Below are positions 27,033 to 34,801 of a stretch of DNA of 64,000 nt, piece by piece. Position numbers and translations under genes: made by a program. Every line of letters begins with the position of its first letter. Within the stretch, counting starts at the first letter, position 1. The notes beneath the pieces were generated by a model, which saw nothing but the letters and a program-made list of their open reading frames with translations, did not search any database and had not been told where the DNA came from. Source of the stretch: Candidatus Bathyarchaeota archaeon (lineage in GTDB: Archaea; Thermoproteota; Bathyarchaeia; Bathyarchaeales; Bathycorpusculaceae). Where the stretch lies: the NCBI GenBank assembly GCA_963828195.1, contig CAWHDT010000003.1, positions 192,001-256,000 on the forward strand, in the 5' to 3' direction.

Positions 27033-27177
27033 AAAATCGCCGACAATTATAAATCCGAATCAAGCAAATAACAATTTTGGAAACCAATGTCCCCCCATGA
27101 AACTGCCGTGAAAGCTTCAATAACATTCAAAACGTAATGCCTCATTATTTCCTTATAGAATCGTAAAAGTGAAAAAT

Positions 27178-27612
27178 ATGTATAGAACTGGCGTCGCGAA
27201 TCTTCCGTTTCACGGCGGCAAAGCTCCTTCATGGCTTACCGTGCGCATGCGTAAGTTAGCCAAAGAAATAGCGGATATTATGGTTGAGGAGCAGGGCACA
27301 GCCAAGTTTATTGAGCGGTTATCTGACCCCTACTGGTTTCAAGCATTCGGCTGCGTCTTAGCCTATGACTGGCACAGCAGCGGAGTAACAACCGTCGTCA
27401 CCGGCATCCTCAAAGGCGCCCTATCGCCGGAAGAGCACGGCATCGCCGTCTGCAGAGGAAAAGGCAAAACCTCAAGAAAAACACCCGCCGACATAGCTTT
27501 GGCTGGCGAAAAATTCGGTTTTTCAGAAGAAACAATCAAAACGCTTACCTACAACAGCAAAATGGCTGCGAAAATAGACAACACCGCCATCCAAGCAGGA
27601 TACCAGCTTTGA
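27178..27612 (+). pseudogene. DUF763 family gene, 5' part (interrupted by the integrated element)
   Basis: GVANLPFHGGKAP, RLSDPYWFQ, DWHSSG and KIDNTAIQAGYQL, then a stop exactly at the element boundary. Confidence 0.92.
27605..27610. repeat. attL core AGCTTT
   Basis: TACC-AGCTTT-GAATAC; the same hexamer occurs at 32238-32243. Confidence 0.8.
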
Positions 27613-27643
27613 ATACATGTTTTTTTCTCGATTACCATGCTTT

Positions 27644-28942
27644 TCACGTGAGCCTACTGTATAGCTTACAGGTTTTTCCGTTCTCGTCAAGCATGGTATC
27701 AAACAGTTCATAGCACATTTGCCTAGCTTCTTCTGCTTGCTCTATCGTATAGACTCGCATTGTCTCATAGCTGCAGTTTTCGTCATCAAAGTCGCCAAAA
27801 TATTTCTCTGTTGAACTTAACCGTTTATGCCCTAGTCGAGCTTGTACTTTTCTCACGTTGAACTGAGTTTTCTTATAGGTTTGGTCTGCAAAATATCGCC
27901 GAAAACTGTGATGATGGATATTAAGCAAATTTGGCATCTGAAGTTTGTCAGCGATTCTTTTCCTGGAACGTGCAAAAGTTGACTGTAGAGCGCGTTTATT
28001 CGGGTTAAAGACGTATGGCGCGTACTTTTTTGGCAAAGATTGAAGCATTGTAATAGTCTGTTGACTAACGTGGATTTTGCGAGATCTGCTTCCCTTTTCT
28101 GGGTGGTTGATATAGACTATTTGACCCGTTACGTCTATCTCATTCCATTGTAACCGCGAAACCTCACCTATTCGAGCGCCGCAATCTGCCAACAACATAC
28201 AAAGCGCTCTTTGTTGTTTGCCGAGATTCTGAAGTAATGTTGTAACTTCATAGGGTTTTGGCGTGTATTGCTGTTTAGGCTCATAGGCGATTTTGGGTTT
28301 TTTAAAAGGAATATCAAACGCCCCGGCGTAACTGATGTATGCCTGAACGTAATGGAATTTTGATGCTGGCGAGAACTGTTCCGTCATCAGAACCGTTAAA
28401 AGACTGTCTGGATTGCTTAAGTTTACACCTTTTTTTCTAAGCGCATTGAGACGTAAAACTCTATGTGTTATGGTTGCGTCTGCTATACCGCGTTTCTTCT
28501 CTTTCCATGCGTATTCTATTAGACTATCTTTTTCTCCCACGCAAACAGTCTTTTCTGCTTGCGATTCCAAATTTTTCGTCTCCTTGACGCATATTTGAAA
28601 CTTACTATTATAGAAAGGTAAAGTATTTAACTCTTTTTCTACAATAGAAAGGCATGATGCATTATGAGAACCTACATCTTCACCGAAAACGAGAGACGCA
28701 CCGTTAGAAACTTTCTCAACGGCACCATCACACGAAGCGATCCCAACCTCATGACGATTCTTTCCAGAATCAAAAGTTTCATCGACCTTTCCAGCGATAT
28801 TGACCTTTACGTCAAGTTGAGAGAAACGGTACCCACAGTTTCGGCATAAATAACGCTGTACTTGAGAACCATTATCTAGATAGCGTAAGCCGTCTTTGTA
28901 ATGACGATCTGAACTGCATTGAGGGCAACAACTAACAACCAT
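27644..28942 (-). CDS. Tyrosine recombinase/integrase with N-terminal Zn ribbon
   Basis: All catalytic residues present: GARIGE (R), PEKGS (K), HSFRR (HxxR), LGH and TEKY (Y). N-terminal CPQC...CRNC. Confidence 0.93.
   Translation of the reverse strand: MVVSCCPQCSSDRHYKDGLRYLDNGSQVQRYLCRNCGYRFSQLDVKVNIAGKVDETFDSGKNRHEVGIASCDGAVEKVSNGASLVFGEDVGSHNASCLSIVEKELNTLPFYNSKFQICVKETKNLESQAEKTVCVGEKDSLIEYAWKEKKRGIADATITHRVLRLNALRKKGVNLSNPDSLLTVLMTEQFSPASKFHYVQAYISYAGAFDIPFKKPKIAYEPKQQYTPKPYEVTTLLQNLGKQQRALCMLLADCGARIGEVSRLQWNEIDVTGQIVYINHPEKGSRSRKIHVSQQTITMLQSLPKKYAPYVFNPNKRALQSTFARSRKRIADKLQMPNLLNIHHHSFRRYFADQTYKKTQFNVRKVQARLGHKRLSSTEKYFGDFDDENCSYETMRVYTIEQAEEARQMCYELFDTMLDENGKTCKLYSRLT
28664..28849 (+). 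CDS. 61-aa ORF nested antisense within the integrase N-terminal linker
   Basis: ATG start and a helical amphipathic sequence (MRTYIFTENERRTVRNFL...). A TATA-like TATTTAA lies ~35 nt upstream. Confidence 0.5.
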   Translation: MRTYIFTENERRTVRNFLNGTITRSDPNLMTILSRIKSFIDLSSDIDLYVKLRETVPTVSA

Positions 28943-29212
28943 CTTTCTGCTACCAAAACACAGCGAGGCTACCTATCTTTAAATAATTTTCCGTTAAAAA
29001 TTATAGGGTTTTAGGCAGTACAAAAAAATAACATTTATTCAGAAATTTAGCTAAAATTAAGCCTTAAATTGTAAAATACCACTGTTTTCAGCTAATTTAT
29101 TGAAATTTTCACAAGCCAAAAAAATAGACAACTAGAAAACACAACTCGTGTGTTTTATCCAAAAATTTTGCTGGAGGAGGGAGGGGTAGCAGATCCTCCT
29201 AACCCCAGGCGA

Positions 29213-29323
29213 TTAGGCGCCCGCGAAGGTAATAAAAAATGAGTCGAACGCATATAAGACCCACTTCGCCCAGACAATGAGCGTGACACGGACGCCCAAC
29301 CAGCACCTATACAAGGTACCCAT
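29213..29323 (-). CDS. 36-aa hydrophobic micropeptide of the element (not in the ORF track)
   Basis: MGTLYRCWLGVRVTLIVWAKWVLYAFDSFFITFAGA*; its ATG lies 6 nt after the stop of 29330-29677. Confidence 0.35.
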   Translation of the reverse strand: MGTLYRCWLGVRVTLIVWAKWVLYAFDSFFITFAGA

Positions 29324-29329
29324 GAAGAT

Positions 29330-29677
29330 TTAAGGATTTTTGGTTTTCCAAGGCTTTTTCTGGTATCCCAGAGCATGAGCTTTGTCTGAAAGCAAGACTT
29401 TTCCGCCCGCGATGCAAGAATCGGTCGCAGCAGCTTGCGCGTTATCAATGTCCATGCCTGAAACTCTGAATTTTGAGAACTCTGACATTTCGCACATTGG
29501 ATTAGCCCGCGCGCCGTAAGCGATCAGTAACGCTTCTACGTCCAATGGTGCCTCTATACCTTCAGTTTCAGTCAAAACAGGAGCTGATTCCTCAGCTTTC
29601 GACTCTGCTAAATCGTCCAAACCAAGCTTGTAGCTTCGGGTTTTAATTTTCCCTGGCTCATAAGCATCAAGTGACAT
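29330..29677 (-). CDS. Element hypothetical protein (115 aa)
   Basis: ATG start with a GAGGT RBS upstream. Confidence 0.65.
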   Translation of the reverse strand: MSLDAYEPGKIKTRSYKLGLDDLAESKAEESAPVLTETEGIEAPLDVEALLIAYGARANPMCEMSEFSKFRVSGMDIDNAQAAATDSCIAGGKVLLSDKAHALGYQKKPWKTKNP

Positions 29678-30174
29678 TTTTACATCATTACCTCAAAAAC
29701 ATGTATAAACTACAAGATATATTAGCTTTTCCGAAAATTTTTACAGTAGTCACTTTCCTATCAAACGTCCAAAAAAAGACCATACCCCATGAGAACGTTT
29801 CCCATAGCGCAATTTCTGGCCAGTAAACAACTGTTTAGAGCGTCTGTACAACCACATACACCCACTATATGGCTTACGTCCGTTCACTTGTATTCGACTG
29901 AACCTGATGCCCTAGGCGTGCCTAACAAAAAAGACCCGTAGCTACGAGTTGACAACAGGCGAGCCTGTCATGTAGACAACCCATCTTTTTCAACTCAAAC
30001 CCCTACCTGGACACAACAAAGTACTCGACTCTTTTTGACCTAACAGGAAAAACCGATTTTTTACATCAGGGCAGTCTTCAAAAAACAAAAATGAAGAAAT
30101 ATGAACGGTTCCCATCCACGACTAGCACTTTTTACACGAAAAAAGCCAGACTAGGAAGCAAAAAACATCACTCG

Positions 30175-30363
30175 TCAATATTTCCAGTCCTTAGTTCCGC
30201 ATGCAGGACACCGAAGAGGCAGCTTTTCAGATCGCGCACGCCAAACCCGACCGCAGTGAGCACATTTACATAACAACCGCCTTTTAGCACGCCGATGCCT
30301 CGGCGCCAACGGAACAGAACTCCGCCTAATCCGATATCTACGCCCATAATGATACCTGTACAC
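30175..30363 (-). CDS. Element Arg-rich Zn-ribbon protein
   Basis: CKCAHCGRVW...PLRCPAC...W; starts immediately after the upstream stop. Confidence 0.75.
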   Translation of the reverse strand: MYRYHYGRRYRIRRSSVPLAPRHRRAKRRLLCKCAHCGRVWRARSEKLPLRCPACGTKDWKY

Positions 30364-30645
30364 TCAATGAAACTCCTCAAAATTAGCAAGATCACGATAC
30401 AATTCATCTAAAAGCTCCTTTGCGTCATGAACTAAGGGCAGCGCCTCAAATTGGTAATGAGAACGCCTCAGTTCATCCAAAATAAGGATAATTTGGCTTG
30501 TTTTTACAACAACATCAGCCTCACGGACGATCTTTTCCGTTAAAACCTCTTCCTCTCCCACGTCATCCACCTCTGTATACTTGGCTACTCCAATTTCTAC
30601 CTGAAAAACCTCTTTTTCCCTCAGCCTTTCCACCTTATCCACCAT
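30364..30645 (-). CDS. Element acidic hypothetical protein (~93 aa)
   Basis: ATG at 30645 (MVDKVERL...) lies just downstream of the Rep stop. Confidence 0.65.
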   Translation of the reverse strand: MVDKVERLREKEVFQVEIGVAKYTEVDDVGEEEVLTEKIVREADVVVKTSQIILILDELRRSHYQFEALPLVHDAKELLDELYRDLANFEEFH

Positions 30646-30668
30646 GAAAGCTACTTTTCTACTCAATA

Positions 30669-31907
30669 TTATCCACCTGGATCCTTTTTCTTCCAACGCT
30701 CCAAATAGATCCAACCTTCACGTGAAGGCAAGTAAGCAACGTACCCCTCTTCTTCCTCGGCAAGCCCTAATTTTTTGTCGCCAACATAAACGATATCCTG
30801 CAGGACGTGACCCCATGGACACTGCTCTTCTTTTTTGCCGTGTAATTCTGACTTTTTAAGGGGAAGTTTGGAATATCCCAAGCTACCAAACCAAGTTACT
30901 ACGTGCCCATGACCAGGAGGCACGCTTGCATGCCCCAACTCATAGAAAATCGTACCAGCTAGGCTATTCCGTAACCCTTTGTTTTTCTGGAAAAAACCCG
31001 CATTCTTTTGAACTTTCAAGGCATTACTACGAGTAGCAACAATACATACGTCACCCTCTTTGTAAAGGGAAGTTTGCAATACTGGAGTACCCTTACAATG
31101 TACCCAACCATACGTGTAAACCTCAGCTATTTTATCTCCGTCAATATCCTTAGAATAACCTACAAAATGAAAATGAGGGCTAAAATAAGGCTTTCCATGA
31201 TTAAACCGTTTCGAGTGAAAAACACAACTGCCACCTTCAAAACCGACCAGCTTAGCGGCTATTAACGAAAAACGCTTCATTTTTGCGACGCTCCAAGTGT
31301 AAAATTTGGCTGGAACACTCACAAAATAGTGTAGTTGCTTACCTTCCGTCCCGTTTTTTTCATCATAAGCAACAAATCGTTTAAGCTGCCTAGCAGTTTC
31401 GCGCGCACGCCAACGCTGCAGGCAAATCGGACAGCTAGGCCTATGGCACCAAAAACGCTGAACCCTAACAAAAGCACCATTAGCCAAACATTCATCATGG
31501 ACGACAAGATTTTGGTGAATCGCATCATCCAACTGTTTAGGTTCATGGTCTTCCAAGCAGCCTACAAAAAAAGGCATCCCACACGTAGTTTTAGCGTGCC
31601 CATGACCAACCAAATCCCAGTCAGCTTCAAAAATCTGGAAAGGCAGATCAGCCAAAATAGTGTTACTTGGGATATTACTGATAATAGCCTCGTCGTCGCC
31701 ACTTGGCGACGTGGGCGGGATACCCGACGCTAAAAAACGTACTTCATCAAACTCTAGGACTTGCTCATCGGTCAATTTTAAAATCTGCTTTCCAACTGCC
31801 GAAAGAACACCAGTATTTTTGAAATCGTTAGCTTCTTGGATTAAACCAGCAGACCATAACTTACAATAAATATAGTTGGATCGATCCAGCTCCTGAAGAA
31901 CTGACAA
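30669..31907 (-). CDS. HUH-superfamily rolling-circle replication initiator (Rep)
   Basis: Zn motif CHRPSCPIC, motif I HYFVSVP, VFHSKR, HUH motif II SPHFHFVG and candidate motif III Tyr in TIFYELGH. Confidence 0.8.
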   Translation of the reverse strand: MSVLQELDRSNYIYCKLWSAGLIQEANDFKNTGVLSAVGKQILKLTDEQVLEFDEVRFLASGIPPTSPSGDDEAIISNIPSNTILADLPFQIFEADWDLVGHGHAKTTCGMPFFVGCLEDHEPKQLDDAIHQNLVVHDECLANGAFVRVQRFWCHRPSCPICLQRWRARETARQLKRFVAYDEKNGTEGKQLHYFVSVPAKFYTWSVAKMKRFSLIAAKLVGFEGGSCVFHSKRFNHGKPYFSPHFHFVGYSKDIDGDKIAEVYTYGWVHCKGTPVLQTSLYKEGDVCIVATRSNALKVQKNAGFFQKNKGLRNSLAGTIFYELGHASVPPGHGHVVTWFGSLGYSKLPLKKSELHGKKEEQCPWGHVLQDIVYVGDKKLGLAEEEEGYVAYLPSREGWIYLERWKKKDPGG

Positions 31908-31908
31908 C

Positions 31909-32241
31909 CTAGTGACGCCTCTCTGCTGCTCTTGCAGAGTCAGCCTCTTTTGAGGCTGTAAACGACTCTTTTTTAGAAGTAGCCTTTATTTTAGCCTCGT
32001 AACGATGAATCCAATTGTCAATTCTCTTAGATTGCCATTTCCAACCCGTACCTTCAAGCTCAGTCTTTAAAATGATGGAATAGGCTAATCTCTGCGGCCA
32101 TAACCAAAAACCTTGACTCTCAAAACCTTCTCGCAAAGCATTAATTGCGAGACGTAACTGAGTATTAGCCCACTCTTTCGAACCATAAAAAAAAGAGGGA
32201 GAATTTGCGCGGGAGATTTCTCCATTGACGTCATTTAAGCT
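31909..32241 (-). CDS. 3' part of an attP-spanning element gene (its start codon is at 27636-27638 on the other end of the element)
   Basis: The frame is open with no ATG from the stop up to the attR core. On circularisation it fuses with MVIEKKTCIQ to give 120 aa. Confidence 0.6.
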   Translation of the reverse strand, partial: SLNDVNGEISRANSPSFFYGSKEWANTQLRLAINALREGFESQGFWLWPQRLAYSIILKTELEGTGWKWQSKRIDNWIHRYEAKIKATSKKESFTASKEADSARAAERRH

Positions 32242-32243
32242 TT
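32238..32243. repeat. attR core AGCTTT
   Basis: TTTA-AGCTTT-ATCACCAC; the host codons TAT CAC CAC resume here. Confidence 0.8.
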
Positions 32244-32944
32244 ATCACCACGCCTTCTTAGTGACCAAGGATGAGAAGTGGGCGGTGATTCAGCAGGGCA
32301 TGAGCGCGGAAGACCAGACAGCAAGACGCTACCACTGGCTCTCCGACAAAGTAACGGATTTTGTTGTGGAACCAGAAAACGCCATAGTTGGCGACGTAAA
32401 AAGGGAAATAGCTTTGAACATGGTGGCAAAAACCAGCGAAGCTGCACGAAGAGCAAGCGTGGACCTTTCCAAGGAACCCACCCGCAAACTAATGAAACTA
32501 ATCCAATCAACAGCCAAACCGCTTGAGCAAACGTCCCTGCAAGCATGGCTTCCCCAAACGGATGACCCTTGGAAGCAAACCCTAACCAGCCTCAATATGC
32601 CCCGAAACATAAACTGGGATACCCTTAGCCGTGTCTACGAATTCCAACCAAACAACTACGAAGAGCTTCTCAGCGTTAAAGGCGTGGGACCAGCCACAGT
32701 GCGCGGCTTAGCGTTGGTTGCTGAGCTGGTTTATGGCGAGAAACCCAGCTGGGAGGACCCCGTTAAATTCAGCTTCGCCTACAGCGGCAAAGACGGCGTC
32801 CCCTTCCCCGTTGACCGCAAAGCAATGGATGAATCAATCCAAATCCTCAAACAATCCGTGCAGGAAGCAAAAATCGGCGACAAAGAAAAACTTCTCTCGC
32901 TTCAAAGGCTTAGACGGTTTGTTCCCGAAAATGCAAATAGCTAA
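32243..32944 (+). pseudogene. DUF763 family gene, 3' part
   Basis: YHHAF...WAVIQQGM, ARRYHW, GVGPATVR, DPVKFSFA.SGKDGVPFPV motifs. Confidence 0.92.
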
Positions 32945-33013: not shown

Positions 33014-33185
33014 GGGGTCGTAGTCTAGACAGGTATGACGACGGGCTCCAGAAGCAAGCAACGGGTTTGCTGACTCCGCTCGGAGAATGACGAAGTTCTG
33101 GAGCGTGTCTAGAGAAACCCGTAAAGAACCGCCTCGCGTGGTTCTTGGGTAAAGGTCGTCGGTTCAAATCCGGCCGGCCCCACCA
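33014..33185 (+). tRNA. tRNA-Trp(CCA) with two introns (37/38: ~33052-33116; 43/44: 33123-33152) and encoded CCA
   Basis: Acceptor GGGGTCG/CGGCCCC-ACCA, anticodon arm ACGGG-CTCCAG^A-CCCGT and T arm GTCGG-TTCAAAT-CCGGC. The second intron has an ACCC/GGGT helix with two 3-nt bulges. Confidence 0.92.
33052..33116 (+). ncRNA. Box C/D guide RNA within the tRNA-Trp intron
   Basis: Guide ACGGGTT before CTGA (33070-73) targets C39 by the N+5 rule. ATGACGA (33087-93) is a C-like box, and TTCTGGAGC is antisense to the anticodon loop. Confidence 0.8.
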
Positions 33186-33655: not shown

Positions 33656-34801
33656 CTATATCTTGTTTGAATGATTCTTATTTTTTCGCAAGTAAAGCGT
33701 TGTTGCAACAGTGGCTAAGGTGAATGCGGCTAAGACCATAATAAATGATGGGAACTCTGGAGTAGCTGTTGCTGTCTGGGAGGTTGTAGAAGTCGGTGAG
33801 GACGTTGGCGTCGGTGAAGTGCCGGGGTTTGTTGATGAAGATGAGGAAGGTGTTGGCGACGTGGTCGAAGACGGATTGGGCGAAGCAGTAGCCCCTGCTT
33901 GAATTGGAGGATTGCTGCCGTAATTATAAAGCAGTAGCTGACCGTTTCCTCCTTGACCATAAGCGTTTCCTCCGTTAATACTACAATTTCCCTGTGTTAT
34001 GCCGCCGCTTCCATATGCTAGAAGTATAACGCCACCACCTCCCCCACCGCCGCCTCCACCACCCAACACCATGCCTGGAGTAAATAAGACGCCGTTTTGA
34101 CCGTTTGCCAAGATATTACCATTGTTTGAGATTTCATTTGCTTGAATATAGATTCCATATGCTCCTGATCCCCCGTATCCCGATACTCCAGTTGTGTCTT
34201 CCCCACCACCTCCGCCTGCTCCGGACAAATAATTGGCAAAACCATTCGCATACATTGTTTGTATGAAAGAATTGGTCAAGGTAGGAGTTGTTGGGGTGGA
34301 GCCATTGGTCGGGCCATTATAATTCGTACCACTTGGTTGGTATCCTCCAAATCCTCCCTGAGCCAAGGTTGCGCCTCCATTCCCTCCGTTTATAATGTTG
34401 TAGCCAGCTCCGCCGCCTGATCCTCCATAAGAGTTGGGGCAAGATCCACCATTCCGGCTGTATTCTCCACCGTTTTCTAAATACCCGGTTATTACTGTCC
34501 CGTCATTAGTAAAAAATCCTGAACAAATTATACTGAACCCATTCGTTGTTAGGGCTACTCCCTGTTGGATTGTTAAACTGGAGCATGAAAGGTCTGATGT
34601 AATCGTTGTATTTGATGAAATGGTGATTTCTTGTAAAGTTTGTGATGAAGCAAGGGTTATAGATAGCGGTCCAGACGTGTCAGTTCCCTTTACGACATTA
34701 TTCGAAAAATTAGCAGAGACTAAAAGTAATAGTGCTATTAGAAAAACAGAGATTTTACAAAAACTAATTAATTTAGGACCAAATATGCTTTGAAATTTCA
34801 T
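33656..34801 (-). CDS. Gly-rich secreted surface protein with PEF-CTERM-like sorting signal
   Basis: Signal peptide, GGGGG repeats, Ser/Thr/Pro linker and TPEFPS-TM-basic tail. Confidence 0.8.
   Translation of the reverse strand: MKFQSIFGPKLISFCKISVFLIALLLLVSANFSNNVVKGTDTSGPLSITLASSQTLQEITISSNTTITSDLSCSSLTIQQGVALTTNGFSIICSGFFTNDGTVITGYLENGGEYSRNGGSCPNSYGGSGGGAGYNIINGGNGGATLAQGGFGGYQPSGTNYNGPTNGSTPTTPTLTNSFIQTMYANGFANYLSGAGGGGGEDTTGVSGYGGSGAYGIYIQANEISNNGNILANGQNGVLFTPGMVLGGGGGGGGGGGVILLAYGSGGITQGNCSINGGNAYGQGGNGQLLLYNYGSNPPIQAGATASPNPSSTTSPTPSSSSSTNPGTSPTPTSSPTSTTSQTATATPEFPSFIMVLAAFTLATVATTLYLRKNKNHSNKI

What the first reader, a model, noticed from the sequence alone, without database searches (positions are those of the whole stretch)
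27605..32243. 4.6-kb integrative rolling-circle element (tyrosine integrase + HUH Rep) inserted in a protein-coding gene
Seen: DUF763 stops at ...GCA GGA TAC CAG CTT T|GA (27610) and resumes 4,633 bp later at ...AAG CTT TAT CAC CAC. The only shared sequence is AGCTTT (27605-10 and 32238-43). Removing one unit restores AGYQL-YHHAF in frame (~377 aa from ATG 27178). The insert encodes a recombinase with all R-K-HxxR-H-Y residues and a Rep with a Cys-rich Zn motif, HUH (SPHFH) and a Tyr motif. It also carries Zn-ribbon and other small ORFs, with no recognisable capsid, packaging ATPase or conjugation genes. Known: archaeal integrative elements mostly target tRNA 3' ends with longer att duplications, and this Rep motif order resembles IS91-transposase/SNJ1-type HUH proteins. 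Inference: a minimal integrative plasmid or satellite family of Bathyarchaeia that uses a very short core in a coding gene.
Basis: partly seen in the sequence, partly recalled or inferred. Interest (0 to 1): 0.9.

Follow-up and report, generated by a model that had tools for sequence, protein, structure and literature searches.

The report
Integrated rolling-circle plasmid splitting DUF763
A 4.6-kb mobile plasmid that carries its own integrase and a rolling-circle replication gene sits precisely in the middle of a conserved archaeal gene, and related elements use exactly the same spot in three other Bathyarchaeia genomes.

Summary
A DUF763 gene is cut after codon 144 by a 4,633-bp insert bounded by AGCTTT (27605-27610 and 32238-32243). 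Eight same-genus genomes carry the uninterrupted site. One metagenome contig joins 27604 to 32238 with no mismatch, in a run that also holds the element.

The insert encodes a tyrosine integrase with an N-terminal zinc ribbon; its R, K, HxxR, H and Y residues are invariant in 34 homologues. It also encodes a 412-aa protein with no Pfam hit whose family profile matches the annotated rolling-circle initiator RepA of virus SNJ1 (hhalign 97.7%, E 1.4e-12).

Integrases 57-71% identical sit at the same DUF763 codon in three other Bathyarchaeota genomes, in inserts of 4.3, 13.5 and 14.5 kb, one with an MCM helicase and no Rep. The target therefore belongs to the integrase and attP module.

The Rep family is mostly carried by 1.8-4.0 kb circular contigs without an integrase. 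It shares a strand-specific DNA motif, a candidate origin. Other 3.7-4.9 kb Rep-plus-integrase elements use tRNA genes.

Verdict: a real integrative rolling-circle plasmid, a new variant of a known kind, of moderate interest.

The parts
27178..27612 (+). DUF763 N-terminal half (144 codons). It ends in a TGA stop (27610-27612) made of the last core base plus the first two bases of the insert.
   Evidence: Pfam PF05559 positions 1-139, E 1e-57. Relatives run straight on into YHHAF. The junction makes the same TGA in all four occupied genomes.
27605..27610 (.). Left copy of the 6-bp core AGCTTT (attL crossover region)
   Evidence: The joint has 6 ambiguous letters.
27611..27643 (.). Non-coding arm between the core and the integrase stop codon, conserved in all four DUF763-site elements; presumed attP arm
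   Evidence: Alignment A6: TGAA..A.G.TTTTTTC.C.A..A.CA.G is invariant among the 4 elements.
27644..28942 (-). Tyrosine integrase, 432 aa, with an N-terminal four-Cys zinc ribbon; intact in the integrated state
   Evidence: PF00589 E 5e-20; PHROG 1 integrase; NCBIfam XerA-like below cut-off and the IS1-type Zn domain. R257, K283, H345, R348, H372, Y381, C33 and C36 are invariant in 34 sequences; C6 and C9 are at 90% or more.
29330..29677 (-). ORF of 115 aa, no known family, no homologue in the related elements
30175..30363 (-). ORF of 62 aa, zinc-ribbon-like (CxxC...CxxC)
   Evidence: Weak Pfam zinc-ribbon hits, best DUF7130 at 7.8e-5 and below cut-off
30364..30714 (-). ORF of 116 aa, acidic, no known family; overlaps the 3' end of rep
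30669..31907 (-). Rep, 412 aa: SNJ1-RepA-like HUH rolling-circle initiator with a Cys cluster, the motif SPHFH and a single invariant Tyr
   Evidence: 490 cluster representatives at E<=1e-3. Invariant C117, C154, C159, C162, H193, H231, H245, H247, Y322, L324, H326. hhalign against SNJ1 RepA 97.7%, E 1.4e-12, 174 columns. Fold searches.
31711..31725 (-). Candidate double-strand origin: GGGTATCCCGCCCAC, the local copy of the family motif GGGTATCCTGCCTAT, inside the 5' part of rep (codons 61-66), followed by a 7-bp stem-loop
   Evidence: The 10-mer GTATCCTGCC (at most 1 mismatch) is on the Rep strand in 51 of 80 metagenome loci and on the other strand in 1 of 80; it lies 20-302 nt before the conserved domain in 49 of the 51. 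It is present in 15 of 18 elements. The 91-nt stretch 31670-31760, which includes the stem-loop, folds with z -2.66.
31909..32136 (-). ORF of 75 aa directly upstream of rep; conserved partner of Rep in the plasmid family; function unknown
   Evidence: tblastn hits in 16 of 80 metagenome loci and in the G058 element; in the loci whose Rep coordinates were compared it lies just upstream of Rep. No Pfam, PHROG, NCBIfam or Atlas match.
32195..32237 (.). Conserved non-coding arm next to the right core copy (presumed attP arm), preceded by an A-run also conserved in relative L041
   Evidence: Alignment A7: the last ~45 nt are conserved among the 4 elements. Comparison with L041.
32238..32243 (.). 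Right copy of the 6-bp core AGCTTT (attR)
32243..32944 (+). DUF763 C-terminal half (233 codons from Y145). An in-frame TTG at 32225 inside the insert could serve as a start.
   Evidence: Pfam PF05559 positions 136-319, E 2.8e-63, plus a helix-hairpin-helix hit below cut-off; ORF list

Best explanation
The insert is an integrated copy of a small rolling-circle plasmid, a cryptic integrated element, of a Bathyarchaeia archaeon.

Its tyrosine integrase recombines a roughly 80-bp attP with an attB inside DUF763 at codons 143-145. The attP consists of the 33 nt after the integrase stop codon, a 6-bp overlap, and about 45 nt upstream of the small ORF that precedes rep. Strands are exchanged within the 6-bp overlap A(G/A)CT(T/C)T. 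This leaves one copy of the overlap at each end and cuts the gene in two.

After excision the 4.6-kb circle would be copied by rolling-circle replication. Rep, an SNJ1-RepA-type HUH endonuclease, would start this by nicking the plus strand at or near the conserved motif GGTATCC(T/C)GCC, which lies in the 5' part of its own gene.

Shown here: the precise insertion, the existence of the empty site, the same site used in four genomes, integrase and Rep homology with intact catalytic residues, and circular relatives.

Inferred: the position of strand exchange, the nick site, present-day excision, and replication of this particular copy.
For: Precise insertion
- The DUF763 halves are contiguous in the Pfam profile.
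- The uninterrupted site is present in 8 same-genus genomes.

Population evidence
- A run X1 contig joins 27604 to 32238 with 0 mismatches over 429 nt.
- The same run holds contigs from inside the element at 99% identity or more.
- Contigs of the element at 99% or more occur in runs of 4 studies.
- A run X4 contig bridges the left junction.

Site specificity
- Of 85 genus genomes with DUF763 (120 searched), 4 have an insert right after codon 144.
- Each insert has an integrase 57-71% identical to this one next to the N-terminal half.
- The non-coding arms on both sides of the core are conserved.
- The 6-bp repeat is AGCTTT in two genomes and AACTCT in two, matching each host's synonymous codons.

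Integrase
- PF00589; the catalytic R, K, HxxR, H and Y are invariant.
- The gene is whole, with the core 34 nt beyond its stop codon.

Rep
- hhalign of a 90-sequence profile against the record-annotated 'rolling-circle replication initiation protein RepA' of SNJ1 gives 97.7%, E 1.4e-12. It covers the Cys motif, motif 1, the HUH motif and the Tyr motif.
- hhalign against pC194 Rep gives 82.6% over the Cys motif and motif 1.
- An AlphaFold2 model of residues 90-412 (pLDDT 85.4) was searched with VIA-align. Of the top 11 rows, 9 are titled Rep or NS1 nuclease domains and one is SIRV1 ORF119, which I recall is an HUH Rep. Z is 4.2-5.0.
- Foldseek against BFVD gives 10 hits at E<=1e-3; the named hits lower in the list are Microvirus replication initiators.

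Plasmid relatives
- 15 of 80 metagenome contigs that encode a Rep relative have 88-127-nt terminal overlaps. They are 1.8-4.0 kb and none has an integrase.
- The closest relatives (44% Rep identity: L036, L037, L039) are circular permutations of one another.

Candidate origin
- The motif is strand- and position-specific: on the Rep strand in 51 of 80 loci, on the other strand in 1 of 80.
Against: - No contig with the circular (attP) junction appeared among the four runs laid. These were contigs, which drop rare forms, not raw reads.
- Run X1 may be the sample the genome was assembled from. Its empty-site contig may therefore show strain variation rather than excision.
- The fold matches to HUH nucleases are weak: Z is 5.0 or less, below the tool's own caution line of 8. 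Foldseek against the PDB found nothing at E<=1e-3.
- Rep has no Pfam, PHROG or NCBIfam hit.
- The local copy of the origin motif has 1 mismatch in the 10-mer and 3 in the 15-mer. A 15-mer match of that quality is expected by chance in half of the window shuffles. Its weight comes only from its position.
- The motif was not found at 1 mismatch or fewer in 3 of 18 elements, including the closest relatives L036 and L038.
- The motif is also translated as GILP/GIPP, so part of its conservation may be at the protein level.
- A 6-bp repeat cannot by itself tell a shared overlap from a target duplication.
- An integrated rolling-circle replicon has to keep Rep silent. I found no mechanism for that.
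Confidence: 0.85

Rival explanations
1. The element is an IS91-like rolling-circle transposon. On this reading the Rep-like protein is the transposase that placed it in DUF763, and the integrase is cargo or a resolvase.
For: - The SNJ1 RepA family is reported to be homologous to IS91 transposases. I saw only the title of Wang et al. 2018 as cited in PMC6563490 and PMC6213432; the paper itself is not held.
- Atlas neighbours include clusters in which 15% of members carry Zn_Tnp_IS91.
- pC194 Rep, which matches part of the profile, gives a weak Zn_Tnp_IS91 hit.
Against: - The genome holds one copy only.
- The same site is used in four genomes next to the integrase, and one of those inserts has an MCM helicase and no Rep hit.
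- Rep in G058 is only 28% identical to this one, while the integrase is 69% identical and the att arms are conserved.
- No member hits Pfam Y2_Tnp.
- Only one Tyr is invariant.
- Relatives are free circles.
Confidence: 0.03
2. The element is a provirus or a satellite: a small replicon that is packaged, by a capsid protein too divergent to recognise or by a helper virus, rather than a plasmid.
For: - Four small ORFs (75, 116, 62 and 115 aa) have no assignable function.
- The Foldseek hits in the viral library that carry a name are Microvirus initiators.
- Atlas neighbours list Uroviricota among their few labelled taxa.
Against: - Pfam and PHROGs find no capsid, portal, packaging ATPase or membrane-fusion protein.
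- Circular relatives of 1.8-2.5 kb leave room for little beyond rep and one small ORF.
- No close relative of the integrase was found in IMG/VR: the best of 3 hits is 27% identical.
- Rep has no match among 50,697 phage records.
Confidence: 0.08
3. The element is an immobile relic: an old insertion that has become fixed and no longer excises or replicates.
For: - No circular junction was seen.
- DUF763 is dispensable and decaying in this genus. It has frameshifts or stops in at least 7 genomes and gave no match with this query in 35 of 120, some of them incomplete. A dead insert would therefore be tolerated.
- The integrase in G059 is in three pieces.
Against: - The integrase and Rep of this copy are full length with every invariant residue.
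- All the ORFs lie on one strand without disruptions.
- A contig with the empty site and flanks identical to this genome occurs in the same run as the element.
- Copies at 99% identity or more occur in runs of four studies.
Confidence: 0.05
4. The junctions are an assembly chimera.
For: The genome is a metagenome-type assembly of 9 contigs with 3.5% contamination. No independent contig was shown across the right junction.
Against: - A run X4 contig from another study spans the left junction with no mismatch.
- Three other assemblies have the same architecture at the same codon.
- The two gene halves fit exactly.
Confidence: 0.01

Closest known systems
Cryptic integrated elements of Thaumarchaeota, in particular NitAQ6f-E2 (Krupovic et al. 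2019, PMC6563490; passages read)
   Same: - Small archaeal elements integrated by a tyrosine recombinase, with no virion or conjugation genes.
- NitAQ6f-E2 is reported to encode a rolling-circle initiator homologous to that of SNJ1.
- att sites are short (down to 8 bp, median 17 bp).
- 14 of 68 elements sit in protein-coding genes.
   Different: - The thaumarchaeal insertions are described as lying in the 3'-distal part of genes. This one lies at codon 144 of 377 and does not restore the gene.
- The repeat here is 6 bp.
- The host is Bathyarchaeia.
- The same mid-gene site is used by four elements with different replication modules.
- That paper's supplementary tables were closed, so I could not check whether any mid-gene case is listed there.
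RepA of haloarchaeal virus SNJ1 (AY048850.2, annotated 'rolling-circle replication initiation protein RepA')
   Same: The profile-to-sequence match (97.7%, E 1.4e-12) covers the G-G/CG motif, CxxxxCPxC, motif 1 (H.V.S.P), the HUH motif (PHxH) and the Tyr motif (Y.LSH).
   Different: - About 20% identity.
- SNJ1 is a 16.5-kb capsid-bearing virus kept as an episome. This element is 4.6 kb, has no structural genes and carries an integrase.
- The family's DNA motif does not occur near SNJ1 repA.
- Neither protein has a Pfam family.
pC194/pUB110-type Rep_1 plasmids (PF01446) and Microviridae gene A-type initiators
   Same: Same order of motifs. hhalign against pC194 Rep gives 82.6%, E 9.7e-6 over the Cys motif and motif 1. 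Some Atlas neighbour clusters carry Rep_1. The BFVD hits that carry a name are Microvirus initiators.
   Different: No hit to the Rep_1 HMM for this protein or for any of 60 family members. The hosts are archaeal. The motif GGTATCCTGCC bears no likeness to the CTTGATA-type nick sites that I recall for that group; I did not check this recollection.
SNJ2 provirus and the Rep-Arvir family (Wang et al. 2026, PMC13107129; abstract and passages read)
   Same: An archaeal temperate element that combines a tyrosine integrase with rolling-circle replication, in which integration state and replication are coupled.
   Different: - Rep-Arvir is Rep_trans-like and is not an HUH protein.
- SNJ2 restores a replication operon only on circularisation. 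Here every gene is whole in the integrated state, and I found no such switch.
tRNA-targeting Rep-plus-integrase elements in the same genus and order (found here)
   Same: Size of 3.7-4.9 kb, a Rep of the same family (25-31% identical by tblastn) and a tyrosine integrase within 3 kb.
   Different: They are flanked by perfect repeats of 26 nt (tRNA-Ala), 30 nt (tRNA-Thr) and 14 nt (tRNA-Lys), the classical arrangement. Their integrases are only 25-29% identical to this one.

Membership tests
Tyrosine recombinase / phage integrase (PF00589) | Match to the catalytic-domain HMM above the curated cut-off | tested here: met
   72.4 bits against a cut-off of 27.1, E 5e-20
Tyrosine recombinase / phage integrase (PF00589) | Catalytic R, K, HxxR, H/W and the Tyr nucleophile | tested here: met
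   R257, K283, H345, R348, H372 and Y381 are invariant in 34 sequences
SSV-type ('suicidal') archaeal integrases | attP lies inside the int gene, so integration splits it (as described in PMC8371274, passages read) | tested here: not met
   The integrase ORF is whole in the integrated state; the core lies 34 nt beyond its stop codon
SNJ1-RepA-like HUH rolling-circle initiators | Sequence homology to SNJ1 RepA across the catalytic motifs | tested here: met
   hhalign 97.7%, E 1.4e-12, 174 columns
HUH endonuclease superfamily | His-hydrophobic-His metal motif and a catalytic Tyr, both conserved | tested here: met
   H245, F246, H247 and Y322 are invariant or nearly so in 60 and in 90 sequences. 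In the model H245 and H247 lie on a strand and Y322 on a helix.
HUH endonuclease superfamily | RRM-like HUH nuclease fold | tested here: inconclusive
   HUH Rep domains head both VIA-align lists, but Z is 5.0 or less. Foldseek against the PDB gave nothing at E<=1e-3. BFVD gave 10 hits at E<=1e-3 with TM-scores of 0.2-0.47.
HUH endonuclease superfamily | Site-specific nicking of single-stranded DNA with a covalent 5'-phosphotyrosine link | not testable with these tools
   Needs a biochemical assay
Pfam Rep_1 (PF01446, pC194 type) | Match to the family HMM | tested here: not met
   No hit at E<=0.1 for this protein or at E<=0.01 for any of 60 members. There is only a partial hhalign match to pC194 Rep, at 82.6%.
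IS91-family rolling-circle transposons | Y2_Tnp transposase with two catalytic Tyr, and several copies at varied sites (the two-Tyr feature as stated in PMC6213432) | tested here: not met
   No Y2_Tnp or Zn_Tnp_IS91 hit. One invariant Tyr. One copy in the genome. The same site is used in four genomes.
Rep-Arvir (Rep_trans-like; DUF7845/PF25227, as named in PMC13107129) | Match to the family domain | tested here: not met
   No Pfam hit of any kind for Rep. Rep has an HUH motif, which that paper says its family lacks.
Rolling-circle plasmid | Exists as a free circle | tested here: inconclusive
   Relatives do: 15 of 80 contigs have terminal overlaps. No circular junction of this element was seen.
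Rolling-circle plasmid | Single-stranded replication intermediates and a defined double-strand origin | not testable with these tools
   There is only a candidate motif
Cryptic integrated element (sense of PMC6563490) | Integrated, bounded by att repeats, carries an integrase and a replication gene, and has no recognisable virion or conjugation genes | tested here: met
   The absence of virion genes rests on Pfam and PHROGs alone.

The most novel reading that the evidence does not exclude
A clade of zinc-ribbon tyrosine integrases in Bathyarchaeia has made the middle of DUF763, a helix-hairpin-helix gene, its dedicated landing site, needing only six shared bases. Unrelated replicons, rolling-circle plasmids and MCM-encoding elements, share this integration module. 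Insertion and excision then work as a reversible on/off switch for DUF763. The element supplies an exact in-frame stop in all four cases and an in-frame start within 13 codons of the junction in three of four. That would be the archaeal counterpart of the phage 'regulatory switches' of bacteria. In addition, the Rep belongs to a large, so far unnamed family of 1.8-4 kb archaeal plasmids whose origin lies inside rep. Such a plasmid would be a natural vector backbone for an uncultured, genetically intractable class.
Probability: 0.15. Interest if true: 0.75.

Novelty: new variant of a known kind. Interest (0 to 1): 0.5.

Why it matters
Bathyarchaeia are abundant and barely cultured, and my searches of the paper library turned up no described plasmid for them. 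The one survey of their mobile elements that I read covers viruses only.

This locus supplies several things:
- a complete minimal replicon with an integration module;
- a defined chromosomal landing site with empty and occupied alleles in nature;
- a candidate origin motif shared by dozens of small circles.

Together these are the parts needed for a shuttle or integration vector.

It also adds a clean case to an open point raised in the 2021 review of archaeal tyrosine recombinases (PMC8371274, section 19 read). The review asks whether att sites inside protein-coding genes work and what they need. Here the shared sequence is cut down to the 6-bp overlap, and the gene is truly broken rather than restored.

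Finally, it shows modular exchange: the same integrase and attP module is coupled to a rolling-circle Rep in two elements and to an MCM helicase in another.

Tried and rejected
- **Rep in family libraries.** Pfam, PHROGs and NCBIfam gave no hit. A profile search of PDB sequences gave only chance-level rows, E 0.2 and above.
- **Whole-protein Rep model.** Foldseek against the PDB gave no match at E<=1e-3. I therefore folded residues 90-412 alone and searched again.
- **Rep against annotated records.** tblastn found no match among 50,697 phage records. Among 72,556 plasmids it found two weak matches, E 0.07 and 0.9, one of them annotated 'protein rep'.
- **G015.** I suspected a second occupied site because of its short open frame. 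It is a frameshift.
- **G122.** I suspected a fifth occupied site (open frame of 169 aa). It is a one-base insertion eight codons downstream of the site, with no insert.
- **G112, G129 and G132.** These are frameshifted or cut elsewhere in the gene.
- **A better attB in the same genome.** There is one exact 17-nt match across the core at C8:170984-171000 (blastn E 0.011). It sits in what looks like a promoter, and the 12-mer inside it belongs to a motif present 11 times in the genome. I treat it as a lead only.
- **Dyad symmetry.** I looked by eye around the core in attB and attP and found nothing convincing.
- **Free forms in IMG/VR.** The integrase profile found only distant relatives (25-27% identity).
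- **ESM Atlas on the 75-aa ORF.** No usable hit.
- **Sigma-70 and terminator scans.** Close to shuffled expectation, and not suited to archaea anyway.
- **Circular junction and right junction.** I looked for both in the laid contigs and saw neither. With contigs this says nothing about absence.
- **Complex prediction.** Not used: the halves of a split gene would pass by likeness.
- **Closed or unavailable.** They may be free circles. Supplementary tables of PMC6563490 and PMC13107129 were closed. They may list comparable mid-gene insertions or Bathyarchaeia members.

Full report
**1. The observation**

The window is G000:C3:192001-256000 of a 2.83-Mb, 9-contig, 96%-complete genome. Three genomes that the genome search places in the same genus carry record titles 'Candidatus Bathyarchaeota archaeon', so the host is a Bathyarchaeia archaeon.

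The ORF at 27169/27178-27612 (+) matches Pfam DUF763 profile positions 1-139. The ORF at 32225-32944 (+) matches positions 136-319. These are the only DUF763 matches in the genome.

The left junction is ...CAG CTT T|GA ATA CAT G and the right junction is ...CATTTAAGCTT T|AT CAC CAC. AGCTTT is the only repeat at the ends, and the repeat finder found no longer one.

In eight same-genus genomes the gene is uninterrupted. It reads GGATACCA(G/A)CT(T/C/G)TA(T/C)CACCA, encoding AGYQLYHHAF, and the protein is 373-377 aa where the locus holds the whole gene. The insert is therefore exactly 4,633 bp, counting one core copy.

A 429-nt contig of public run X1 joins 27604 to 32238 with no mismatch and six ambiguous letters. 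Other X1 contigs lie inside the insert at 99% identity or more. A run X4 contig from a different study spans 27508-27738 across the left junction. Contigs of the insert at 99% or more occur in runs of four studies. X1 may be the source sample of the assembly, so it is not independent proof. No contig was shown across the right junction, and no circular joint was seen.

**2. Gene content**

All credible ORFs of the insert lie on the minus strand. From the right end they are: a 75-aa ORF, Rep (412 aa), a 116-aa ORF, a 62-aa zinc-ribbon ORF, a 115-aa ORF, and the integrase (432 aa), whose stop codon is 34 nt from the left core.

The integrase matches PF00589 (E 5e-20), PHROG 1 and, below cut-off, NCBIfam XerA. 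Its first 40 residues match IS1-type four-Cys zinc-binding domains. In an alignment of 34 homologues R257, K283, H345, R348, H372, Y381 and two of the four Cys are invariant; the other two Cys are at 90% or more. Homologues are numerous: 450 clusters at E<=1e-3. Some are named by their sources as Bathyarchaeia integrases or as integrase fused to a zinc ribbon.

**3. What Rep is**

Rep has no hit in Pfam, PHROGs or NCBIfam. An exhaustive HMMER search finds 490 cluster representatives at E<=1e-3. None of the 7 proteins found in the 90%-cluster database has an informative name.

Alignments of 60 and 90 members show invariant C117, C154, C159, C162, H193, H231, H245, H247, Y322, L324 and H326. That is a CxxxxCPxC cluster, a motif H..VS.P, the motif SPHFH and a single Tyr in Y.LSH.

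The 90-member profile matches the SNJ1 protein that its record annotates as 'rolling-circle replication initiation protein RepA'. The hhalign probability is 97.7%, E 1.4e-12, over 174 columns that include every motif. It matches pC194 Rep, a Pfam Rep_1 protein, at 82.6% over the Cys cluster and motif 1 only.

AlphaFold2 models have pLDDT 74.4 for the whole protein and 85.4 for residues 90-412. They place H245 and H247 on a strand and Y322 on a helix.

VIA-align against 48,161 chains lists HUH Rep or NS1 nuclease domains first. In one search, 9 of the top 11 rows are so titled, and one more is SIRV1 ORF119, which I recall is an HUH Rep. Z is only 4.2-5.0, and Foldseek against the PDB finds nothing. 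Foldseek against BFVD gives 10 hits at E<=1e-3. Those ten carry no name; the named rows lower in the list are Microvirus replication initiators. ESM Atlas neighbours include clusters with Rep_1 and, in a minority of members, Zn_Tnp_IS91.

I conclude that Rep is an SNJ1-RepA-type member of the HUH superfamily. This rests mainly on sequence-profile homology and conserved catalytic motifs. The fold evidence is consistent but weak.

**4. The integration site is specific and reused**

A scan of species-representative genomes with the integrase found three relatives, 57%, 69% and 71% identical. All are in Bathyarchaeota assemblies and all lie next to a DUF763 N-terminal half that ends at residue 144. 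The matching C-terminal halves lie 13,521, 4,318 and 14,538 bp away.

In a search of all 120 genomes of the genus, 85 have DUF763. Five have an open frame that stops at the site. One of these (G122) is a frameshift, so 4 of 85 are occupied. G055, G063 and G113 have the same contig numbers and coordinates as G058, G057 and G059, so I take them to be the same genomes.

The four inserts break the gene between the same two codons. The repeat is AGCTTT in G000 and G058 and AACTCT in G057 and G059, matching each host's synonymous codons. The first two insert bases, GA, complete a TGA stop in all four.

The 33 nt between the core and the integrase stop, and about 45 nt on the other side of the core, are conserved among the four. 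I read these as attP arms.

The 4.3-kb insert of G058 has the same layout: the 75-aa ORF, Rep and the integrase. Its Rep is only 28% identical to this one. The 13.5-kb insert of G057 has an MCM-domain protein next to the integrase and no Rep hit. None of the ten largest ORFs of the 14.5-kb insert of G059 has a Pfam family, and its integrase is in three pieces. So the DUF763 target travels with the integrase and attP module, which is combined with different replicons.

**5. The wider Rep family**

A scan of metagenome contigs returned 80 loci with Rep relatives.

- Fifteen have exact terminal overlaps of 88-127 nt, the usual sign of a circle. They are 1.8-4.0 kb and some are near-duplicates.
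- Only 4 of the 80 carry an integrase relative.
- Sixteen have a homologue of the 75-aa ORF.
- The closest relatives (44% Rep identity) are circular permutations of a roughly 3.6-kb molecule.

One integrated relative (L041; integrase 35% identical and also with a zinc ribbon) lies in an intergenic region. It is flanked by a 17-nt repeat with one mismatch that starts at the integrase stop codon.

Within the genus and order, Rep relatives occur in 5 of 40 other genomes. An integrase lies within 3 kb in 5 of 7 loci. Three of these are bounded by perfect repeats of a tRNA 3' end: 26 nt at tRNA-Ala, 30 nt at tRNA-Thr and 14 nt at tRNA-Lys. This gives elements of 4.9, 4.1 and 3.7 kb. Small integrative rolling-circle plasmids are thus recurrent here. 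The DUF763-targeting ones are the unusual branch.

**6. A candidate origin**

A k-mer census of 18 elements found GGGTATCCTGCCTAT-like words shared across Reps that are only 25-35% identical. The 10-mer GTATCCTGCC, allowing one mismatch, occurs in 15 of the 18, always on the Rep-sense strand.

Among the 80 metagenome loci it is on that strand in 51 and on the other strand in 1. In 49 of the 51 it lies 20-302 nt upstream of the conserved domain.

In the window the copy is GTATCCCGCC at 31714-31723 (-), 98 nt before the domain, followed by a 7-bp stem-loop. The 91-nt stretch around it (31670-31760) folds with z -2.66. The local 15-mer alone is not above chance.

The motif is translated as GILP/GIPP, but its third-codon positions are fixed as well. 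I take it to be a cis-acting site, most likely the nick site or the Rep-binding site of the double-strand origin. SNJ1 has no such motif at repA. This assignment is an inference.

**7. Mechanism**

Integration by a tyrosine recombinase with a 6-bp overlap explains four things:

- the exact 6-bp repeat;
- the fact that it matches each host's sequence;
- the conserved arms;
- the whole integrase gene.

The integrase is not of the SSV type, because its gene is not split. A 2021 review states that characterised archaeal integrases carry out both integration and excision without a directionality factor (PMC8371274, passage read), so no excisionase need be sought.

The gene is truly interrupted and not restored. 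DUF763 seems dispensable here: it gave no match in 35 of 120 genomes, some of them incomplete, and is frameshifted or carries a stop in at least seven. I could not find how Rep is kept from firing on the chromosome.

**8. Comparison with what is known, and novelty**

Already in print for Thaumarchaeota (PMC6563490, passages read):

- integration into protein-coding genes, 14 of 68 elements, in 3'-distal regions;
- att sites as short as 8 bp;
- one cryptic integrated element with an SNJ1-type Rep.

The review lists a few further coding-gene targets and notes that none has been tested (PMC8371274, section 19). The survey of Bathyarchaeia mobile elements that I read deals with viruses and mentions integrases in two of them only (PMC10541130, passages). 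A full-text search for DUF763 found one unrelated paper. Searches combining Bathyarchaeia or Bathyarchaeota with plasmid, integrase and rolling-circle terms found no description of such elements. The library lacks most subscription journals, and supplements were closed.

New here are:

- the host class;
- the mid-gene, non-restoring and conserved attB with only six shared bases;
- the sharing of one integration module by rolling-circle and MCM replicons;
- the plasmid family with its motif.

This is a new variant of a known kind, and I score interest at 0.5.

Noticed in passing
window 33014-33182 (+): An intron-bearing tRNA gene (Rfam RF00005, 38.5 bits, 169 nt), 70 nt after the DUF763 stop codon. 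ARAGORN found no tRNA anywhere in the window. The element did not use this tRNA as its target.
   Followed up: partly
G015 (L025:2157-3282), G122 (L125:19340-19460), and G083, G112, G116, G129, G132: DUF763 is frameshifted or carries a stop in at least seven genomes of the genus, and gave no match in 35 of 120 (some incomplete). The gene looks dispensable and is decaying.
   Followed up: partly
G000 C8:170984-171000 (outside the window): An exact 17-nt match to the rebuilt attP across the core (blastn E 0.011), about 20 nt upstream of an ATG. It could be a secondary attachment site or just a promoter-like word.
   Followed up: partly
G000 C5:694503, C5:682488, C3:12045, C1:420739, C1:39507, C8:57456: A repeated motif of about 45 nt (...ACGCARCCTGCAAACRATTTAAGCTTTGCCRCAAAAAAGCAAC...) occurs at six or more places in the genome. 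It explains why one 12-mer of the attP is over-represented (11 copies).
   Followed up: no
L031:5489-10399, L032:7014-10703, L027 (all in G008): One genome (G008) holds three loci with Rep relatives. Two are bounded by tRNA 3'-end repeats (tRNA-Ala 26 nt, tRNA-Lys 14 nt). In L032 the second repeat copy lies inside the 5' part of the integrase match, which may mean an integrase of the split (SSV) type.
   Followed up: partly
L027:5187-5285: A roughly 95-nt segment just upstream of the integrase is 80-90% identical in most genomes of the genus. It is probably a tRNA gene that ARAGORN missed.
   Followed up: no
L122:10678-13245 (G057): The 13.5-kb element at the same DUF763 site encodes an 856-aa protein with an MCM P-loop domain (E 2e-12) and a weak ScpB-like region, plus an 890-aa ORF with no family.
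   Followed up: partly
window about 32152, run X2: A run X2 contig matches the window from 32152 rightward but carries 167 unlike letters before that point. This suggests a variant element, or a recombinant, with the same right end.
   Followed up: no
window 33656-34801 (-): A 381-aa Gly/Ser/Thr-rich secreted protein that ends in PEFPSF plus a hydrophobic stretch and a basic tail. It looks like an archaeosortase-type C-terminal sorting signal; that name is recalled and was not tested.
   Followed up: no
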